Part shown: one piece after another, positions 8,900 to 16,461 of the stretch
Position numbering within the stretch: the stretch's first letter is position 1
Layout: each line of letters opens with the position of its first letter
NCBI GenBank assembly: GCA_000165425.1
Contig: CT868046.1
Coordinates: 62,001 to 126,000, forward strand
Direction: 5' to 3'
Origin: Paramecium tetraurelia
Lineage: Eukaryota
DNA: 64,000 nucleotides
Notes under the pieces: model-generated
The model's input: only the letters and a program-made list of their open reading frames with translations
Databases searched by the model: none
What the model was told of the DNA's origin: nothing
Program-made: the position numbers and the translations under genes

Positions 8900-11800
8900 A
8901 TGTCAGAGGAAGGGAAGAATCTGACAGACAAGTCATTGGAATCCAACAATTAAAATTCTCTATATCGATTGATATATTTGATGGTTCGGGATTCAAATTA
9001 ATCGATTATAGTGCACAGCTTAGCCATGTTAATCACTCTGATGTAAATTCATTATTTCAAATTCCATCATATGGTATAATCATTATTGTATAGAGATTGT
9101 ATCAGTATGGTAGGACAGTAATGCAGACACATTGACTTAAATCTTTGGATATTTTAATTTTACCCATTATTTGTTAAACTAGGATTATAGTGCAGTATAA
9201 ATATTAATTTATGTTTCTATTGCATTATTATGTTTTTGGGTGTTCTTATTTTTAATATCAATCATATTTATAGTCAACTAGAAAGATCCAGTATAATTAT
9301 TAATCAACGTATTAAAATACCTGACCTTTGTGTTTAGTACTATACTGTATATACCTATGTTATTCCTATTCACAGTAATACTTTATTAAGATTATGTAGT
9401 TTTCAATCAGTTGTACAAATGGGTATATGGATGACTTTTCAAATCAAAAATGTTGGTAAGGATTGTTAGTCATAGATCAAATAATATCAATTATTGGATT
9501 AATAATTCTATCCATCATGTGCTCAGCAGTTAATTATTTATTTTTTGATGGTTCTTTTGATCAGGAGAAGGCATTATCAAAGAGAAATGGAAGGTGTACA
9601 ACCTTAACCTCAACTCATTTCGGCATTGTTGTGTTGCTATCTATGTTACCACACAATAGTAATTCATAAGTGTTTTTTGAAGTCTATTAATTAATTGGAT
9701 CAGTGGTTTGCTTTTTATATGCAAAGAGAAATGATGCATATAATAACAGGTTAATGTAGAAGCTGTGTTTGACATTTCTTACTTTAGAAATGTGGGCATC
9801 TCTTATGTTGTGTATATCTAATTTAGTGGAGAAGAGAATAATGGTTGGATCTTTATATACTTGGTTATTTTGCCTGCCTTTTGTATTCATGATATAGCTG
9901 TTGCAATAATAGAAGAGGGAATAGTGTTTGATGATTTATGTGAATAAGTTTGATAATCCTGTTTAATTGGTGAATCATGTACATGAAGTCATCAAATTAG
10001 TAGAATATGATAAAAAAAGATTGCCATAAGGGTAGTTGTTAAATGGTTACATTGAATTTCACAATTAAACTTGTCCAAATCCTTTATGTCCATTAAAAAA
10101 GGTGAAATTCTCTTTGAATATGTTCAAAGTAAAAAATGAAATAGTCAGTAAAACAGACAAAAGACATTAATTAATCTATGATACTATGACAAGGCTGTTC
10201 ATTATGGGAATCGGGAAATTTCCAACTGATGTATTCATTCGAATAGAATACTCACTGTTTACATTGAGGATATTGAAATCCAAACCTTAAGCTTTGGAAG
10301 AATTAAGCAATATTGAAAAACTAAAGACATCTTTTGATGAAAAATATATAGTTTTCTATATTAAAAGTGTGATTGAGGCTGAGATATCCGAGTTAAGTGG
10401 GGAAGGATAGGATTTCACGGAATAAAGAGACTTTGATGAGAAGTTTGGATCCTTTAAATAAGCTATGGAAAGAAGTGTAAGTTTACTGATGGAGTTCTGG
10501 TCTTAATTTGCTGATGAGAAACCTGATTTGGTTAAGCTGTATGAGATTGGATCAAAATTGTTTCCGATTAGGATGTATGTTGATACGACTTGGAAAAGAC
10601 TTTAAAGAATCTAAAATCAATAACTACCATAAGCATTGAGATTATATTCTAAATATTTAATTGAAATATTCAATGATCGGATATCAGGATTTGATTTACT
10701 TGAATAAGCTAGAAAAATAGAGAGTTCGTTTGCTCAAAGAAAAGCTTTTAAATTAGGAATGACTTCAAATTTGAATGTTGATGGACAAGAAGATGGTTGT
10801 GTTTTTATTTCATTGGAAGAGGAGAAGTTTGGTTAAATCTATGCTATTAATATGGCTGCTGCTTCATTATTGGGATTTGATAAAAATGAACTTATGAATA
10901 AGAAAGTCAATAATATTATGCCTTCATTATACGCAAAGCATCACGATGACTTTTTAAGAAGATTCTTGGATACAAATGAAGCCACTCTATTGAATAAAGA
11001 AAGGTTGTTACTAGGGAAGCATAAGAACGGATATTTGTAAGGGATAAATGTGTTATTGAGACCTGTTTATCATGTTTTAAAAGAAGGAGTAGAGTTTGTA
11101 GGTACATTCAAAAAGGAAAAGAGAATCAAGGATGTAGCATATTTAGTTTGTAATAAGGAGTACGTGGTAGAAGATATTTCAGGAGGTTGTATAAATTTAT
11201 TGGGGTTGGATATAAAGTCTTTACAAATTTAAGAAATCCATCTTTTTGATTTGTTTCCAGAGATTAAGGAATGTTATGGTGATTTTAAATTGAAATAAGG
11301 AAAATCGGTTGATTTCATATTGCCAAAAATCTTAGATGATCATATTGCATTTGGAGCATCAGATACATCTATTAAATTAAGTGTGTCCATTTTGGATATT
11401 AACTTTCTAATAATGAAAAATTCAGAAAATGAATAAGGTTTGGCTGGATATTAAGTAAGGGTCGAAAGACAAATTGATTTGTCGACTTCAAATATCAAAT
11501 AATTTCAGTAGAAAACTTTTAAGAATCAAAATTTTTCATTTAGATTATAATTTCAACAAACTGGAATGCATTTCTATGGAGAATTTACTGATGCTAATTA
11601 CAGTGAAATGATCACTCATATCCAAGATTAGAGTATGTTCACTAATTAAGAGTATGATCTGAAAAGTAAAGAAGTTGAGAAGAATGAGGATGTCGTTGAT
11701 TACTCTTAAGGTATCAGGGTAATGAGATTGTTTGAGGGTGTGATCTATGATATAGAAAAGTTTTAATCGGATGCAGATATGGAAAGTTTCGAGGAAATTC

Positions 11801-13699
11801 AAATCAAGAAGGAGGAATAACTGAATCAAGAGAGTGATGAGCCAAATGAATCTGGATATTTTAGATCATCTAAAGAATTATAGGAGACTTTAAATGCATA
11901 AAGTGAGAGTAGAACAATCAGATGGTTATATTACATATCATTTCTACTTACTGTTCTACTGAGTATCTTATGCATATTGAACAATGTCTTTGAGAGAGAA
12001 GAAATCAACAATTAGAATTCTGATTGGAACATGATTATCAAACAATCTGATATGATAATATATCTCAATGAAATCGTATTATATTCAAGAGAATTAATGT
12101 TATTGAATATTGGATTCTCTAATTACAAAGAAGACAAACTACTATCTAATTTGAATAAAAGTATTTAGCAATTTGATTCTATGAGTAAGGACATCTTTAT
12201 GAAGATTTCCTTCAATTCTGATGTAATGATGAATACTCAATCAGGTGAAGAAACAAGTACTTTAGAATAGGCCAGTCAGCAAATTGTAAGTAAATCCCTT
12301 AACATTCAATAAGTATACTCACAATTAAATGAAAATTAAATCGACTATTACTATGTGATCTACAATTCATTAAATGATTTCATTCGTGCTTTATTAGACA
12401 TGTATATGAATACCATAGATTTATCCTACGATCAAACCAACAAATTATATAGTGACATTTTAGTGATTCTCGTATTATCCGCCTGTTTAACATTCATTTC
12501 TTCTATTATCTTGACTTGCATTCTAACAAGCACTCTAGATAAAAGGTAAGAAATCTTAAGCATTTTTTTGGATATCCCAGAAAAGACAGCTAAATTATTT
12601 TATTCGAAATGTGAAAACTTTCTATCCTAAATATCTTCAAATGAAGATGATGAAGTATTAAGTGAAATTGATATCGTTGAGGAAAAAGGGAATGATGAAC
12701 CTGTGTCTCTTTTGGGTAGAAAGAGGAAGAGGTTCAAGAATAATGAGAATAAGCATATGGGATTTTTTGTTAAGATGATATTATTAGCTTCTGTTATAGA
12801 GTCTTACTTTATCATGATCTATTTCTTAGATTAGAACAATGCTGATCAAAAATTAAATATCTTAAACGAATTCAACCAAACATCCTTAAGTTCCAGTTAT
12901 TATTCTATTCTGGTCAATACACTCAAATAATACATTTACAATGACAAGCTCAATTTATTGAATTAAGATAGCAACACTACTATGGTTTAGCTGATTAATA
13001 ATGTCTATGAGATTGATACTCTCTATCAGAAATTACATGCTGTCAATGTGGAACACAATGATATTTCTTATATTGATTATTACAACTCTATTATGTTTGA
13101 TAATCTATGTACAACAATTACATTACAAGAGATCACATGTGAAACCTTTGCTAATGGAATTTTAGATCATGGATTAATGACAGCAGTGTCTAGGCATTTT
13201 CAAAATATCCGAAAACTATACAACTCCTATTAGAATCTCAACCAAAACGCAACCTTAGATTTTCCTTGGTCGAACTTTACTCTTTTAGATCTGTCTGCTG
13301 ATCCAAAGAGAAATAAACTACTCAATTTGCTCAACACTCCAGAAAGTTATGAAATAAGTAATTTAATATTTGTACTCTAGACAATATGTAATTCTATGTA
13401 ATTAAAGATGCATTTACATTGTTAAAGAACAAGTACTTGGATATCACAACGTCTGATCAAGAAAATTACATTGTTCAGCAGCTAATATTAATGATTTTCT
13501 TCTTGTTAACATTGATACTGGCTTTGCTGTTTTGTTGGAACCCCTTCCTAAGAAAATTAAACAGAGAAGTAATTTCTTATCCATAAGGTAGATTTGGTCA
13601 ACCAAGTGCTTGCTGACCTTCATCCCCATCGATGAAATAGCTAAAATTAGAACTATAAATAATTATATTAGGACTGTAATATTGGAATAAAACATTTGA
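8900..13699 (+). CDS. TmcB/TmcC-like multi-TM protein with PAS domain
   Basis: N-terminal multi-TM region, then EFWSQFADEKPDLVKLYEIGSKL and YSKYLIEIFND helical segments, a PAS domain (INMAAASLLGFDKNELMNKKVNNIMPSLYAKHHDDFLRRFL...GKHKNGYL) and further C-terminal TMs. Several small introns. Confidence 0.85.
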
Positions 13700-13725
13700 A
13701 ATATTAATATTTTATATAAATTATA

Positions 13726-14387
13726 TCAATCTTAAGCATCGTTATCAGAATATTGAGGAGTGTACAATGCATCCCATCCTAATAAAAAAGGCAAAGAAAA
13801 CTAGAATTTCATCATTATATAAATTTTACATTGATTAATTCTAATGCTGTTACATATTCTGCTTGAGTCAAATTAATCTTAAATGGATTGAATTGTTTTT
13901 CTTATTCGTCCTCTTAAGAAATTGAAAGGTAGATGTCTTATGCAGTTTTATTGATCTTTAAAAGTTTCTTATCATTTGCTTGTGCTTGATATGCTTATTT
14001 GTAATAATTTAAGGAATACTGATAAGGAAATTCGAAGCTTCATCATATGCTTTATTTTTTGTGACCAACAATTATCCGATCTATTTAACACCTAAACTAT
14101 AATGTTTCTTTTTGTCCCATTCCAAGTGATGATTACCTTCCTTTTAACGAATCACTGGGACCAACTCAAAGAGGATCCAACCAGGTTTTTGAATTGCAAA
14201 GTAATTATTTTTCTCAACATAGGTAGCTTTGATCGGAGTCATCGAAAACATTAAATTTTCATTCCACACAGTGAATGCTTTTAAGATCACAGGTTTTTCA
14301 CAATTAATTTCTATGGTGAATATGTATATTAGCGATACTTCTAGTTTCAAAGCTGAAACAATGCTTTAATATTTTTGAGAATTACAT
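13726..14387 (-). CDS. Whirly-like ssDNA/RNA-binding protein, 192 aa, probable mitochondrial presequence
   Basis: Introns at 14311-14338, 13994-14019 and 13801-13829 give 579 nt (193 codons). Protein contains KAFTVWNENLMFSMTP..KPGWILFELVP..LEWDKKKHYSLGVKQIGQLL..KKLLKI..INLTQAEYVTALELINFSLPFLLGWDAL, collinear with the plant Whirly domain. Confidence 0.75.
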
Positions 14388-14400
14388 AATATTAATTATA

Positions 14401-16461
14401 ATGAGTACAGATCAATCATCGAATTCATCAACTTAAAAAGGCAAATCACTCTCTTCCATAGATACCACCAGATCTAAATATGCATAGGAGTTAGGAATTC
14501 ATTAGCTCTTACAAAATGCTTTCCAAGACATGGGTACCCAGTGTCCTTATCTAGTTTAGATGATGAAAATACAGATATGAAAACTTTGCTACCCATTTCA
14601 ATCTTATTGGAAGAGATGAAGAGCGATCATTCAAGCACAAGAACATACTGTTTGCAGAACCTCTCAACCATTGCCTTGGTATTGGGTCCTGCCAGAGCAA
14701 AAGGCTTGTTGGGCGGATTTATTTCAAATTTACTTAAGGATCAAGAAAAGGCTGGTTTAAAAATTAACTTAATATTTTAGTCGAGGATGTTCCAGAAGAA
14801 TTATAAGTAATGCTTACATTACTAGAATCCATGCCAAAATTAATAAATCTGATTGGAGGTCCAGAAAACAGTTTAGTGTTGTTAAAACCATTACTCGAAA
14901 CCATCGGAGATAGAACAAAGGAAGAAACAAAAAACATGTACATTAAAATCATGAGGGATATTGGAAAGAGATTATTGAAATAATAACACTTATTTGAGGA
15001 ATGTGTTACTTAGAGAATAATAGAAGCGAAGGATGGTGATATAGATGAATAATGTGCTGCTGTTACATTAATTGCTAATCTCTATAATCTAGTTTCTTAG
15101 TAGATATTATAAGAATGGATGGAGTACTTTAACACTTTAATGTTGAGTAATGAATAAAATGTCAGAAAGAGAGTAGTTCTAAGTATAAAAGAATTTGCAT
15201 AATGGGCAAGTAATCCTGAAGAGCATAAGTTTTGTATTGAATTAGCTGATAATGTCTTTACAAATGGGAAGGATTTTAAATCAAATTTATTCTATAGTGT
15301 CCCAGCTTTAATCAAATTTCAAGGTTATCAAGATTACTTAGGCAAATTATTTAAGATGGATAATATTAATGCTTATAATTGCTTTTTAGAAATATGCATT
15401 GAGTCTCTATAAGTATTATAAAATACTGCTGATAGCAAAATATTTATTGAAAATTTTATTAAACTATTTTCTAAAACAGAATTAGAGTTGAAATAAAAGT
15501 TATCAGTATATTGTGGAAAACTAGTGGTCTTTATTAAAGATTCAAAGACGATTTACAAAGGAGTAATTTTAATAATTAATCTTAGTATCTTGTCCAAATT
15601 CAGTAATATATGACATAGTTAGAATAGGAAAAGAATTTCATGATAAAATAGAATTTGGTAGAGTCTGTCATCCTGATATTGAACCAAGCAACTGATAGAA
15701 GAATATATTACCAATAAGAAGAAATCTAGTACTTCTTAAGATTTCTAATGAATCAATTGATGAGTGGTGACACAGATCTCAAATTTAAATTTGTATCTAA
15801 ACAGAAATCCTTTAACATCATTTTGTAGTTCATTTCGGATAATGCTTTTGCTTAAAATGAATCAATACAAATAGTTAAGAATTTACTACAAGTCATAATC
15901 AATATTGAATAATGTAAGAATTGGAGAATGAGACAATAATGTTTGATGTCATTGTAAATGGTAATCTTATAATCCTATACAATAGTTCCTGACAAACCTA
16001 TAATAATTTTAAATTTTCAAGACTTTCCAATCAGATGATCTAGAAGTTCAATTAATTAAAAGACTAGTATAAGATAGAATTTCTGCAGTTCGAGAAGAAG
16101 CAAGCAAAGTATGAATATATGAATTATCTAGACTCTGTTGCAATTGTTTAGATAATTAAAGGAGAACGATATGTTTGAAAAAGGAAAGAGAGTAATAGAT
16201 TAATTAAGTGATTTACTAAAACATCCAAACTATTTGGTTAGAGTGAACTTTGTATTGGGATTGGGGAATGCATTCTTTTTGGGAGAACATACATATAATT
16301 TGTTGAGGTAATTAAAGAATGAAGTTCCAAATGTAAAATTGGCTTTATTGGAAGTCCTATATAATAATAAAAAATGCAAACAATTAGATTTAATTCCTAT
16401 TAACGATTTGGATTAGGATGTAAGAGATGTTGCATAAATTATATATTAATAATTCAAATGA
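14401..16461 (+). CDS. Divergent PP2A scaffold (A/PR65)-like HEAT-repeat protein
   Basis: LLPISILLEEMKSD..TRTYCLQNLSTIALVLGPARA (PR65 N-terminal repeat), WRMRQQ, DRISAVREEA, HPNYLVRV, EVPNVKLAL and C-terminal DQDVRDVA. Multiple tiny introns; start codon uncertain. Confidence 0.8.

What the first reader, a model, noticed from the sequence alone, without database searches (positions are those of the whole stretch)
13726..14387. Whirly-like ssDNA-binding protein in a ciliate, probably mitochondrial
Seen: three clean GT..AG introns and the ciliate code give a 192-aa protein, of which the ORF track shows only a fragment. Knowledge: it aligns block by block with the plant Whirly domain as I recall it. 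'KAFTVW' corresponds to 'GYSIY', 'KPGWILFELVP' to 'REG.V.LQFAP', 'LEWDKKKHYSLGVKQIGQLL' to 'YDWSRKQVFSLSVTEIGSII', 'KKLLKI' to 'RKVLKV', and 'INLTQAEYVTALELINFSLPFLLGW' to 'IPVTKAEFAVL.SAFNF.MPYLLGW'. Whirly proteins are usually described as plant organellar ssDNA-binding and repair factors; trypanosome MRP1/2 share the fold. The plant KGKAAL DNA-binding motif is replaced here by NENLMF. Inference: the N-terminus MQFSKILKHCFSFETRKIN looks like a mitochondrial presequence, so this could be an undescribed nucleoid or RNA-binding system for the linear ciliate mitochondrial genome.
Basis: partly seen in the sequence, partly recalled or inferred. Interest (0 to 1): 0.85.

Follow-up and report, generated by a model that had tools for sequence, protein, structure and literature searches.

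The report
Paramecium TIF1-like Whirly ssDNA-binding gene
This is a real, expressed Paramecium gene for a small Whirly-type single-stranded-DNA-binding protein, but ciliates already have a studied relative (Tetrahymena TIF1), so it is a new member of a known family and not a new system.

Summary
On the minus strand, 13726..14387, four exons and three introns of 26-29 nt give a 192-aa protein under the ciliate code. A 192-aa Paramecium pentaurelia protein (P0004) is identical at 184 of 192 positions and has the same junction residues. Poly-A RNA reads show minus-strand transcription, and 9 reads give the exact intron-2 junction. Introns 1 and 3 have only indirect support.

It is a Whirly protein:
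- Exon 2 alone scores 28.2 bits on Pfam PF08536 (cut-off 23), and P0004 scores 39.7.
- Plant WHY1/2/3 and PBF-2 are the only significant solved-structure hits.
- The predicted fold matches AtWHY2 (Foldseek E 1e-10, TM 0.82).
- A homotetramer is predicted.

The "undescribed system" claim fails. The nearest characterised relative is Tetrahymena thermophila "rDNA origin-binding protein", which I recall as TIF1 (E 1e-16). A 2008 paper already calls TIF1 a distant Whirly homologue.

Mitochondrial targeting remains plausible but untested. Many protist relatives carry presequence-like N-termini, while the one here is short and weak. Interest is low.

The parts
14339..14387 (-). Exon 1: ATG at 14387..14385, 16 codons plus the first base of codon 17. 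It encodes the start of the N-terminal extension.
   Evidence: The same N-terminus is annotated in P0004 and P0005. No RNA reads were laid here, so this exon rests on annotation of relatives and on reading-frame logic.
14311..14338 (-). Intron 1, 28 nt, GTA..TAG
   Evidence: Read depth is 0 in the bin 14313..14343 and coverage stops in the bin that ends at 14312. Without splicing, the ATG frame ends after 37 codons (ORF 14298..14411).
14020..14310 (-). Exon 2: the rest of the N-terminal extension and the first half of the Whirly domain (first beta-sheet and helix).
   Evidence: P0001. Pfam Whirly 28.2 bits against a cut-off of 23, profile positions 8-69 of 136. RNA depth is 2-23.
13994..14019 (-). 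Intron 2, 26 nt, GTA..AAG
   Evidence: The exact junction 14020|13993 is shown by 6 + 3 reads of run X20 whose loose ends equal the sequence across the intron (checked).
13830..13993 (-). Exon 3: second beta-sheet and the start of the C-terminal helix.
   Evidence: P0002. Weak colinear Pfam Whirly match, 12.7 bits, profile positions 87-131. RNA depth is 5-19 over most of it.
13801..13829 (-). Intron 3, 29 nt, GTA..TAG
   Evidence: The junction lies within the conserved ..FSLP.L.GW motif shared with TIF1 and plant Whirly. The depth bins fit one read per run ending at 13800 (my arithmetic, no junction read listed).
13726..13800 (-). Exon 4: end of the helix-loop-helix, the acidic C-terminal tail (residues 181-192, 13764..13729) and the TGA stop (13728..13726).
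   Evidence: P0003. The tail aligns with the acidic tails of TIF1, Cyclidium and Pseudomicrothorax.

Best explanation
This is a nuclear (macronuclear) gene of a Paramecium of the aurelia group. It is spliced from four exons and encodes a 192-aa member of the Whirly family (PF08536). The protein belongs to the ciliate branch of that family, which also holds Tetrahymena TIF1, the rDNA origin-binding protein.

**Most likely mechanism (inferred).**
- Four subunits join through the two long helices (about residues 91-106 and 157-181) into a whirligig tetramer.
- The beta-sheet blades of the tetramer bind single-stranded DNA without strict sequence need.
- By coating ssDNA exposed at origins, stalled forks and breaks, the protein would time or restrain replication initiation and suppress error-prone repair. 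This is what is reported for TIF1 in the ciliate nuclei and for plant Whirlies in organelles.
- The acidic C-terminal tail probably modulates DNA binding or recruits partners.

**Compartment.** This is not settled. I lean to a nuclear, TIF1-like role (about 0.55), with mitochondrial or dual targeting a live alternative (about 0.4).

**Shown here:** the gene model, transcription, family membership and predicted fold. **Inferred:** tetramer formation, ssDNA binding, role and location.
For: **Gene and expression**
- Gene model.
- Annotated 192-aa orthologues have the same junctions.
- Minus-strand poly-A RNA and the exact intron-2 junction.

**Family**
- Pfam Whirly: 28.2 bits on the window's own exon 2, and 39.7 bits on P0004, which is 96% identical to the window's protein (cut-off 23).
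- phmmer against solved structures: AtWHY1 2e-8, WHY3 1.5e-7, WHY2 3.5e-7, PBF-2 1.7e-6, StWhy2 about 3e-6. The other 3 of 9 rows have E near 1.

**Fold**
- AlphaFold2 model of P0004 with an 18-row alignment: pLDDT 76.1, pTM 0.71.
- Foldseek top 13 listed rows are all plant Whirly structures, E 1e-10 to 1.2e-9, with TM up to 0.82 normalised to the target.

**Tetramer**
- Score 0.89, best of 3 controls 0.00.
- The mark was reached by 21 of 30 proteins solved as pairs of one chain and 0 of 23 solved as single chains. On eukaryotes it was 17 of 29 and 0 of 30.
- The runs agree in at least 85% of contacts, and the partner's pLDDT is at least 81.
- The interface lies on the helices.
- Plant Whirly tetramers are solved, so this pass may come from memory and shows likeness only.

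**Link to TIF1**
- In an exhaustive phmmer of 1.84 billion representatives, 48 proteins had E <= 1e-3.
- The best named hits are ciliates: Cyclidium 1.7e-23, Pseudomicrothorax 1.2e-22, T. thermophila 'rDNA origin-binding protein' AAL09694.1 1e-16, Pseudocohnilembus 9.6e-16.
- BLASTP of P0004 against the Tetrahymena protein: 27% identity over residues 29-192, E 9e-24, colinear to the acidic tail.
- That protein itself passes Pfam Whirly (26 bits).
- In a 43-row ML tree, all named ciliate rows, including the window's protein and TIF1, fall in one clade of 31 rows (support 96/88). Plant WHY1, a foraminifer, a euglenid and a rhizarian fall outside it.
- TIF1's role: PMC2377264 (passages), PMC4287346 (passage), PMC9967165 (passage).
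Against: - **Orthology to TIF1 is not resolved.** Inside the 31-row clade, the Paramecium group (100/99) sits in a polytomy with the 19-row group that holds TIF1 (86/94). Identity to TIF1 is only 27%.
- **P. bursaria protein unplaced.** A 169-aa protein (P0016, E 4.4e-10, long branch) could be the bursaria orthologue or a second paralogue. A word-indexed search found no kin for it.
- **No whole-genome paralogue search.** No whole genome was held, so paralogues in this genome or in Tetrahymena could not be searched exhaustively.
- **KGKAAL is absent.** This motif of plant Whirlies is missing, so higher-order assembly may differ.
- **Models used a proxy.** The structure and complex models were made on P0004 (184/192 identical), not on the window's own spliced protein.
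- **The relatives' N-termini argue against a purely nuclear role.** Of 24 family rows with a Met and an N-terminal extension of at least 15 aa, 12 carry an R-x-[FYL]-[SA] motif after an acid-poor stretch. TIF1 itself has 24 acid-free, lysine-rich N-terminal residues.
- **TIF1 papers unread.** The primary TIF1 papers could not be read. TIF1's tetramer state, ssDNA binding and S-phase nuclear localisation are recalled, not seen.
Confidence: 0.75

Rival explanations
1. It is a mitochondrial Whirly. The N-terminal extension is a cleavable presequence, and the tetramer coats ssDNA of the linear ciliate mitochondrial genome (nucleoid, replication and repair), like plant Why2. It has no role in the nuclei, or only a minor one.
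For: - The first 13 residues are basic, hydrophobic and hydroxylated with no acidic residue. They are predicted helical and of low confidence, so they lie outside the fold.
- Across the family, extensions are acid-poor: 3.2% D+E in the first 20 aa against 12.0% in the domain.
- 12 of 24 usable rows carry R-x-[FYL]-[SA], at 1.39 per 100 aa in the extensions against 0.05 in the domains. These rows include the ciliates Pseudomicrothorax and Furgasonia and non-photosynthetic protists.
- AtWHY2 is named mitochondrial in its PDB entry, and AtWhy2 is mtDNA-associated (PMC2377264, title and abstract).
Against: - The presequence-like stretch here is short. E14 and E21 interrupt it, and none of the 4 aurelia-group rows has the motif.
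- The heuristic is my own, not a trained predictor.
- Exon 1 has no read support.
- The only characterised ciliate member is described as acting on nuclear rDNA replication, chromosome transmission and the S-phase checkpoint.
Confidence: 0.3
2. It is an RNA-binding protein of the MRP1/MRP2 or PUR-alpha type that uses the Whirly-like fold to anneal or chaperone RNAs, for example in mitochondria.
For: Foldseek also finds MRP1/MRP2 (2gje_D, E 8.5e-4, TM 0.50 and 0.63 normalised to query and target) and PUR-alpha (E about 3e-3).
Against: - These matches are 6-7 orders of magnitude weaker than those to plant Whirly, with rmsd 6-8 A.
- No MRP or PUR sequence appears among the solved-structure hits or the Pfam hits.
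- The sequence passes the Whirly gathering score.
Confidence: 0.04
3. The 192-aa reading is an artefact, either a chance ORF or a decaying gene copy, and makes no functional protein.
For: A 122-aa P. sonneborni protein (P0008) looks like a frame-shifted copy of the same gene. This shows that duplicates of this gene do decay in the aurelia group.
Against: - The frame is intact with a single terminal TGA.
- There is strand-specific poly-A RNA and a spliced junction.
- Copies in two other species are 84-96% identical, including both copies in P. pentaurelia.
- The profile and fold matches are significant.
Confidence: 0.02

Closest known systems
Tetrahymena thermophila TIF1 ('rDNA origin-binding protein', AAL09694.1 / Q23DA9; P0012)
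   Same: - Closest characterised relative: E 1e-16; 27% identity over residues 29-192, E 9e-24.
- Similar size (212 against 192 aa).
- Same order of parts: an N-terminal extension, one Whirly domain, the ..FSLP..GW helix motif and an acidic tail.
- Both pass PF08536.
- Both fall in the same ciliate clade, support 96/88.
- Both lack KGKAAL.
   Different: - The sister relation is unresolved.
- TIF1 has a longer, lysine-rich extension with a KKKK cluster just before the domain, which is absent here.
- Binding to rDNA type I elements and checkpoint roles are known only for TIF1 (details recalled). Nothing is known for Paramecium: the searches 'Whirly'+'Paramecium' and 'TIF1'+'Paramecium' gave 1 and 7 papers, none on this protein judging from their titles and abstract openings.
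Plant Whirly proteins (StWhy1 = p24/PBF-2, AtWHY1/2/3, StWhy2; PF08536)
   Same: - Same Pfam family, above the gathering score.
- Same fold (TM up to 0.82).
- Same conserved blocks.
- Predicted tetramer through the same helices.
   Different: - About 17-20% identity in the structural alignments.
- KGKAAL is replaced by NENLMF.
- There are no long transit peptides: 26 aa precede the domain here, against 94-100 aa in the plant-like rows P0043 and P0049.
- The host is not photosynthetic.
[quoted passage not shown]
   Same: A Whirly-like fold is found by Foldseek (E 8.5e-4 to 4.5e-3).
   Different: - No detectable sequence relation.
- The structural match is much weaker (rmsd 6-7.5 A).
- MRP1/2 is a heterotetramer that binds RNA (entry titles; the rest is recalled).

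Membership tests
Whirly (Pfam PF08536) | Sequence matches the family profile above Pfam's gathering score | tested here: met
   The window's own exon 2 scores 28.2 bits (cut-off 23, E 1.9e-6). Exon 3 adds a colinear 12.7 bits. The full-length proxy P0004 scores 39.7 bits, profile positions 8-130 of 136.
Whirly (Pfam PF08536) | Whirly fold: two antiparallel beta-sheets followed by a helix-loop-helix | tested here: met
   The AF2 model of P0004 (96% identical proxy) has pLDDT 76.1 and the strand and helix order expected. The Foldseek top 13 listed rows are all plant Whirly structures, E 1e-10 to 1.2e-9.
Whirly (Pfam PF08536) | Homotetramer held by the C-terminal helices | tested here: met
   This is a prediction only. 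Score 0.89, best of 3 controls 0.00. The mark was reached by 21 of 30 solved one-chain pairs and 0 of 23 single chains. Contacts agree in at least 85%, and the partner's pLDDT is at least 81. The interface lies at residues 91-106 and 157-184. Like complexes are solved, so the pass may come from memory.
Whirly (Pfam PF08536) | KGKAAL motif in the first strand (plant Whirlies; listed as their motif in PMC7209962) | tested here: not met
   HMMER aligns NENLMF opposite KGKAAL of AtWHY2. TIF1 and the other ciliate rows also lack the motif. It is therefore a feature of plant members, not of the whole Pfam family.
Whirly (Pfam PF08536) | Binds single-stranded DNA | not testable with these tools
   Needs EMSA or a similar assay with recombinant protein.
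Ciliate TIF1 lineage | Groups with Tetrahymena TIF1 to the exclusion of plant and other protist Whirlies | tested here: met
   A 31-row clade with support 96/88 holds all named ciliate rows, including TIF1 and the window's protein. Canna WHY1, Nonionella, Ploeotia and Lapot fall outside it. 8 of 50 candidate rows were dropped for length before the tree was built.
Ciliate TIF1 lineage | Strict one-to-one orthology with TIF1 | tested here: inconclusive
   There is a polytomy inside the ciliate clade. The P. bursaria protein P0016 is unplaced. No whole genomes were available for a paralogue search. TIF1 is the only Tetrahymena cluster seen among the 30 of 48 hits whose names were looked up.
Ciliate TIF1 lineage | Binds rDNA origin type I elements; needed for S-phase progression and the checkpoint | not testable with these tools
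   Known for TIF1 only (PMC2377264 passage; PMC4287346 passage).
Mitochondrial matrix proteins with a cleavable presequence | N-terminal acid-free amphipathic stretch with an arginine cleavage motif | tested here: inconclusive
   There are 13 acid-free residues, then E14, and no R-x-[FYL]-[SA] motif. 12 of 24 usable family rows have the motif, but none of the 4 aurelia-group rows does. This is a heuristic; no trained predictor was on hand.
MRP1/MRP2 (kinetoplastid gRNA-binding) | Sequence or close structural relation to MRP1/2 | tested here: not met
   There are no sequence hits. Foldseek gives only E 8.5e-4 with rmsd 6.2 A.

The most novel reading that the evidence does not exclude
The whole ciliate TIF1/Whirly lineage, including this Paramecium protein, is ancestrally a mitochondrial ssDNA-binding protein, imported alone or dually with the nuclei as in plants. 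It guards the linear ciliate mitochondrial genome. On this reading the studied nuclear role of Tetrahymena TIF1 is only half of its biology. The lead is the presequence-like N-termini of many protist relatives (12 of 24 usable rows) and the acid-free 24-residue N-terminus of TIF1 itself.
Probability: 0.3. Interest if true: 0.5.

Novelty: new member of a known kind. Interest (0 to 1): 0.2.

Why it matters
The finding corrects the idea that Whirly proteins in ciliates are unknown. The family has had a characterised ciliate member, TIF1, since 2001 (reference list seen). Orthologues of this gene already carry the Pfam Whirly label in public databases.

Two modest open points remain:
- No one appears to have studied the Paramecium copies.
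- The N-termini of many protist Whirly homologues look like mitochondrial presequences. This makes a cheap test worthwhile: is the ciliate TIF1 lineage dually targeted, as plant Whirlies are?

Tried and rejected
**Searches that failed or gave little**
- **Whole-genome search:** no genome is held for this window, so paralogues in the same genome could not be counted.
- **Profile search with alignment A1:** the word-indexed collection returned only 5 proteins, none new, and did not even return TIF1. It added nothing.
- **Word-indexed search with P. bursaria P0016:** it found only P0016 itself, so that protein's status as orthologue or paralogue stays open.
- **Primary TIF1 papers:** PMC1142411, PMC1679683 and PMID 17005912 are not held.
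- **Search for the TIF1 accessions or its database name in papers:** 0 papers.
- **Search for 'Tif1p':** 1 paper, with nothing on localisation in the passage read.
- **Andalucia mitochondrial proteome paper:** no mention of Whirly.
- **Two plant reviews:** their only 'protist' hits are the journal name in references.
- **Earlier findings of this scan:** nothing.

**Sequencing runs and reads**
- **Sequencing-run index:** no RNA holder was listed. The RNA evidence comes from laying raw-read runs of the same species label.
- **Contig runs X3 and X4:** they cover only the neighbour gene from 14391 and 14394 onward, and say nothing about this gene.
- **Junction reads for introns 1 and 3:** none were listed.

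**Other**
- **Low-complexity hits:** P0011 (1732 aa, 13 matched stretches, no Pfam family) and P0050 (421 aa, scattered sub-threshold families) look like low-complexity matches. They were left out of the tree.
- **Neighbour ORFs:** Pfam on them gave nothing that bears on the finding.
Full report
**1. What is in the sequence**

The gene lies on the minus strand. I read it base by base and translated each exon with the ciliate nuclear code.

| Part | Coordinates | Note |
|---|---|---|
| Exon 1 | 14387..14339 | ATG at 14387..14385 |
| Intron 1 | 14338..14311 | 28 nt, GTA..TAG |
| Exon 2 | 14310..14020 | |
| Intron 2 | 14019..13994 | 26 nt, GTA..AAG |
| Exon 3 | 13993..13830 | |
| Intron 3 | 13829..13801 | 29 nt, GTA..TAG |
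| Exon 4 | 13800..13726 | TGA stop at 13728..13726 |

A script that joined the exons by coordinates gave 579 nt and 192 aa. There are 7 TAA and 1 TAG in frame, and the only TGA is at the end. G+C is about 24-34% along the window. The tiny AT-rich introns and the TAA/TAG = Q code fit Paramecium.

**2. Independent support for the gene model**

- A search with the exon-2 reading frame found three annotated 192-aa proteins: two from P. pentaurelia and one from P. sonneborni.
- They have the same residues across all three exon junctions.
- Their identity to the window's protein is 184, 161 and 164 of 192.
- No hit was fully identical, so the window's own protein was not among them. The species is therefore likely a close sibling of P. 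pentaurelia. That is my inference.

**3. RNA evidence**

No run in the index is on record as RNA. I therefore laid two oligo-dT raw-read RNA runs of the same species label, X19 and X20. They gave 97 and 120 laid reads of 58 nt.

- From 13724 to 14312, reads lie only in the "first mate on +" orientation.
- Over the neighbouring plus-strand gene, from 14406 onward, they lie only in the opposite orientation. The Whirly gene is therefore transcribed from the minus strand.
- In X20, 6 reads that end at 14020 carry a 10-base loose end equal to 13984..13993. Another 3 reads that end at 13993 carry a 9-base loose end equal to 14020..14028 (checked). This is the exact intron-2 junction.
- Depth is 0 across intron 1. 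It is also 0 across the 49-nt exon 1, where 58-nt reads cannot be placed without splitting.
- On exon 4 each run has about one read. The bin depths (0.26, 1.0 and 0.48 of 31-base bins) fit a read from about 13747 to 13800, the exon edge. This is my arithmetic, not a listed junction.
- Intron 2 is therefore shown directly. Introns 1 and 3 rest on the annotated relatives, on the conserved motif that spans junction 3, and on the premature stop that follows if intron 1 is kept (ORF 14298..14411).

**4. Family**

- *Profile:* the window's own exon 2 passes Pfam's gathering score for Whirly, PF08536 (28.2 bits, cut-off 23, E 1.9e-6). Exon 3 adds a colinear weak match. The 96%-identical full-length stand-in P0004 scores 39.7 bits over profile positions 8-130 of 136.
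- *Solved structures:* 9 rows had E <= 10. The 6 significant ones are all plant Whirlies: AtWHY1 2e-8, WHY3, WHY2, PBF-2 and two StWhy2 forms. The other 3 have E near 1.
- *Fold:* an AlphaFold2 model of P0004 with an 18-sequence alignment has mean pLDDT 76.1 and pTM 0.71, with residues 1-20 below 50. Foldseek ranks plant Whirly structures first (E 1e-10 to 1.2e-9; TM 0.82 to AtWHY2). MRP1/MRP2 (8.5e-4) and PUR-alpha (about 3e-3) come far behind.
- *Tetramer:* four copies of residues 24-192 gave a score of 0.89, against a best of 3 controls at 0.00.
  - The mark was reached by 21 of 30 proteins solved as pairs of one chain and by 0 of 23 solved as single chains.
  - On eukaryotes the figures were 17 of 29 and 0 of 30.
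  - The runs agree in at least 85% of contacts, and the partner's pLDDT is at least 81.
  - The interface uses residues 91-106 and 157-184.
  - Whirly tetramers are solved, so this pass may be from memory. It shows likeness, not binding.

**5. Relatives and what is already known**

- An exhaustive phmmer of P0004 against 1.84 billion cluster representatives gave 48 proteins at E <= 1e-3 and 9 at E <= 1e-10.
- I looked up names for 30 of the 48.
- The best named hits are ciliates:
  - Cyclidium porcatum;
  - Pseudomicrothorax dubius;
  - Tetrahymena thermophila "rDNA origin-binding protein (macronuclear)", AAL09694.1 / Q23DA9, with orthologues in two other Tetrahymena species;
  - Pseudocohnilembus persalinus "ssDNA-binding transcriptional regulator";
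  - Furgasonia blochmanni;
  - a P. bursaria hypothetical protein.
- Further out are Canna indica WHY1, the foraminifer Nonionella, the euglenid Ploeotia and the rhizarian Lapot.
- From memory, the Tetrahymena entry is TIF1 of Saha, Nicholson and Kapler (2001). That reference appears in the reference list seen.
[quoted passage not shown] It says TIF1 is implicated in DNA replication, in faithful transmission of genetic information and in activation of the intra-S-phase checkpoint.
- PMC4287346 and PMC9967165 (passages) call it a checkpoint activator whose loss destabilises the micronucleus.
- The TIF1 papers themselves were not held. TIF1's tetramer state, its binding of type I element strands and its S-phase entry into both nuclei are therefore recalled.

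**6. Is this gene the TIF1 orthologue?**

- BLASTP of P0004 against the Tetrahymena protein gives 27% identity over residues 29-192 (E 9e-24). The alignment is colinear to the acidic C-terminal tail.
- The tree had 43 rows: the window's protein plus 42 of 50 candidates. The other 8 were dropped because they were under 150 or over 400 aa.
  - All named ciliate rows fall in one clade of 31 rows (support 96/88).
  - Inside it, the Paramecium aurelia group (100/99) forms a polytomy with the 19-row group that holds TIF1 (86/94), with a 5-row group, and with three long single rows including P. bursaria P0016.
- No second Tetrahymena or aurelia-group cluster appeared among the names looked up. P0016 has no detectable close kin in the word-indexed search.
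- The simplest reading is one ciliate Whirly lineage, with the two P. pentaurelia copies (P0004 and P0006) as duplicates. Strict orthology is not proven.

**7. Where does it act?**

In the model, the 26 residues before the domain lie outside the fold.
- The first 13 residues have no acidic residue. E14 and E21 follow, and there is a single arginine.
- I aligned the 43 rows and examined the stretch before the domain:
  - 19 rows had no usable extension (under 15 aa or no Met). Of the 24 that did, 4 are the near-identical aurelia-group rows.
  - 12 of the 24 have an R-x-[FYL]-[SA] motif in the extension. The density is 1.39 per 100 aa in 1009 aa of extensions, against 0.05 per 100 aa in 7489 aa of domains.
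  - Acidic residues make up 3.2% of the first 20 residues, against 12.0% of the domains.
  - Rows with the motif include the ciliates Pseudomicrothorax and Furgasonia and several non-photosynthetic protists.
  - None of the 4 aurelia-group rows has the motif, and neither does TIF1. TIF1 does have 24 acid-free, lysine-rich residues.
- This is a hand-made heuristic, not a trained predictor. It says that much of the protist Whirly family looks mitochondrial, and that the Paramecium protein is a weak case.
- Against a purely mitochondrial role stands the experimental record of nuclear functions for TIF1.
- I put a nuclear TIF1-like role at about 0.55 and any mitochondrial import, sole or dual, at about 0.4. 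These two are not mutually exclusive.

**8. Mechanism**

- *Shown:* a spliced, expressed gene; Whirly family membership; the predicted Whirly fold.
- *Predicted:* a homotetramer through the helix pair.
- *Inferred from the family:* the blades bind ssDNA. The protein shields ssDNA at origins, forks and breaks, and so restrains untimely initiation and error-prone repair.
- *KGKAAL:* from memory, the second lysine of this plant motif is needed for assembly of tetramers into 24-mers. StWhy2 K67A entries do appear. Its absence predicts that the ciliate proteins stop at tetramers.
- *C-terminal tail:* the conserved acidic tail may regulate DNA binding or recruit partners, as acidic tails do in other SSBs. 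This is an inference.

**9. Verdict**

The novelty claim fails. This is a new, unstudied member of the known ciliate TIF1/Whirly lineage, and its relatives are already labelled with the Pfam domain in public data. No paper on the Paramecium protein was found: "Whirly"+"Paramecium" gave 1 paper and "TIF1"+"Paramecium" gave 7, none on this protein judging from their titles and abstract openings. The one modestly interesting open question is whether the lineage is dually targeted.

Noticed in passing
window 14387..14403 and 14391..14500: The gene sits head to head with a plus-strand gene. That gene's ATG is at 14401, only 13 bases from the Whirly ATG at 14387. Contigs of runs X3 and X4 begin at 14391 and 14394, and opposite-orientation RNA reads start near 14406. 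The two 5' ends must abut or overlap, so they probably share a very compact bidirectional promoter. From memory, the neighbour's N-terminus resembles a PP2A scaffold (HEAT) subunit. Pfam on two fragments gave nothing.
   Followed up: partly
window 9325..13494 (+): A long open frame of 1389 aa under the ciliate code converges on the Whirly gene. It has a TmcB-type TPR region (74.9 bits) and a PAS_9 domain (29.4 bits), plus hydrophobic stretches. It is probably a large membrane sensor protein and unrelated to the finding.
   Followed up: partly
P0008 (P. sonneborni, 122 aa): This annotated protein starts inside the Whirly domain. It then runs in frames that correspond to out-of-frame and intron-retaining readings of the window gene. 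It looks like a frame-shifted, decaying duplicate of the Whirly gene in P. sonneborni.
   Followed up: no
window 13817..13878: RNA depth falls from 7-18 to about 0.9 to the left of about 13848, some 19 bases before the end of exon 3. In run X20, 8 reads begin exactly at 13849. No loose ends were listed there. Duplicate reads or thin coverage near the 3' end are the likely cause, but an alternative 5' splice site (a GTA at 13853..13851) was not excluded.
   Followed up: no
P0011 (1732 aa) and P0050 (421 aa), hits: Two long proteins matched the query in 13 and 6 separate short stretches. P0011 has no Pfam family, and P0050 has only scattered matches with no single stretch passing. They are probably low-complexity K/E/Q-rich matches and not Whirly repeats.
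   Followed up: partly
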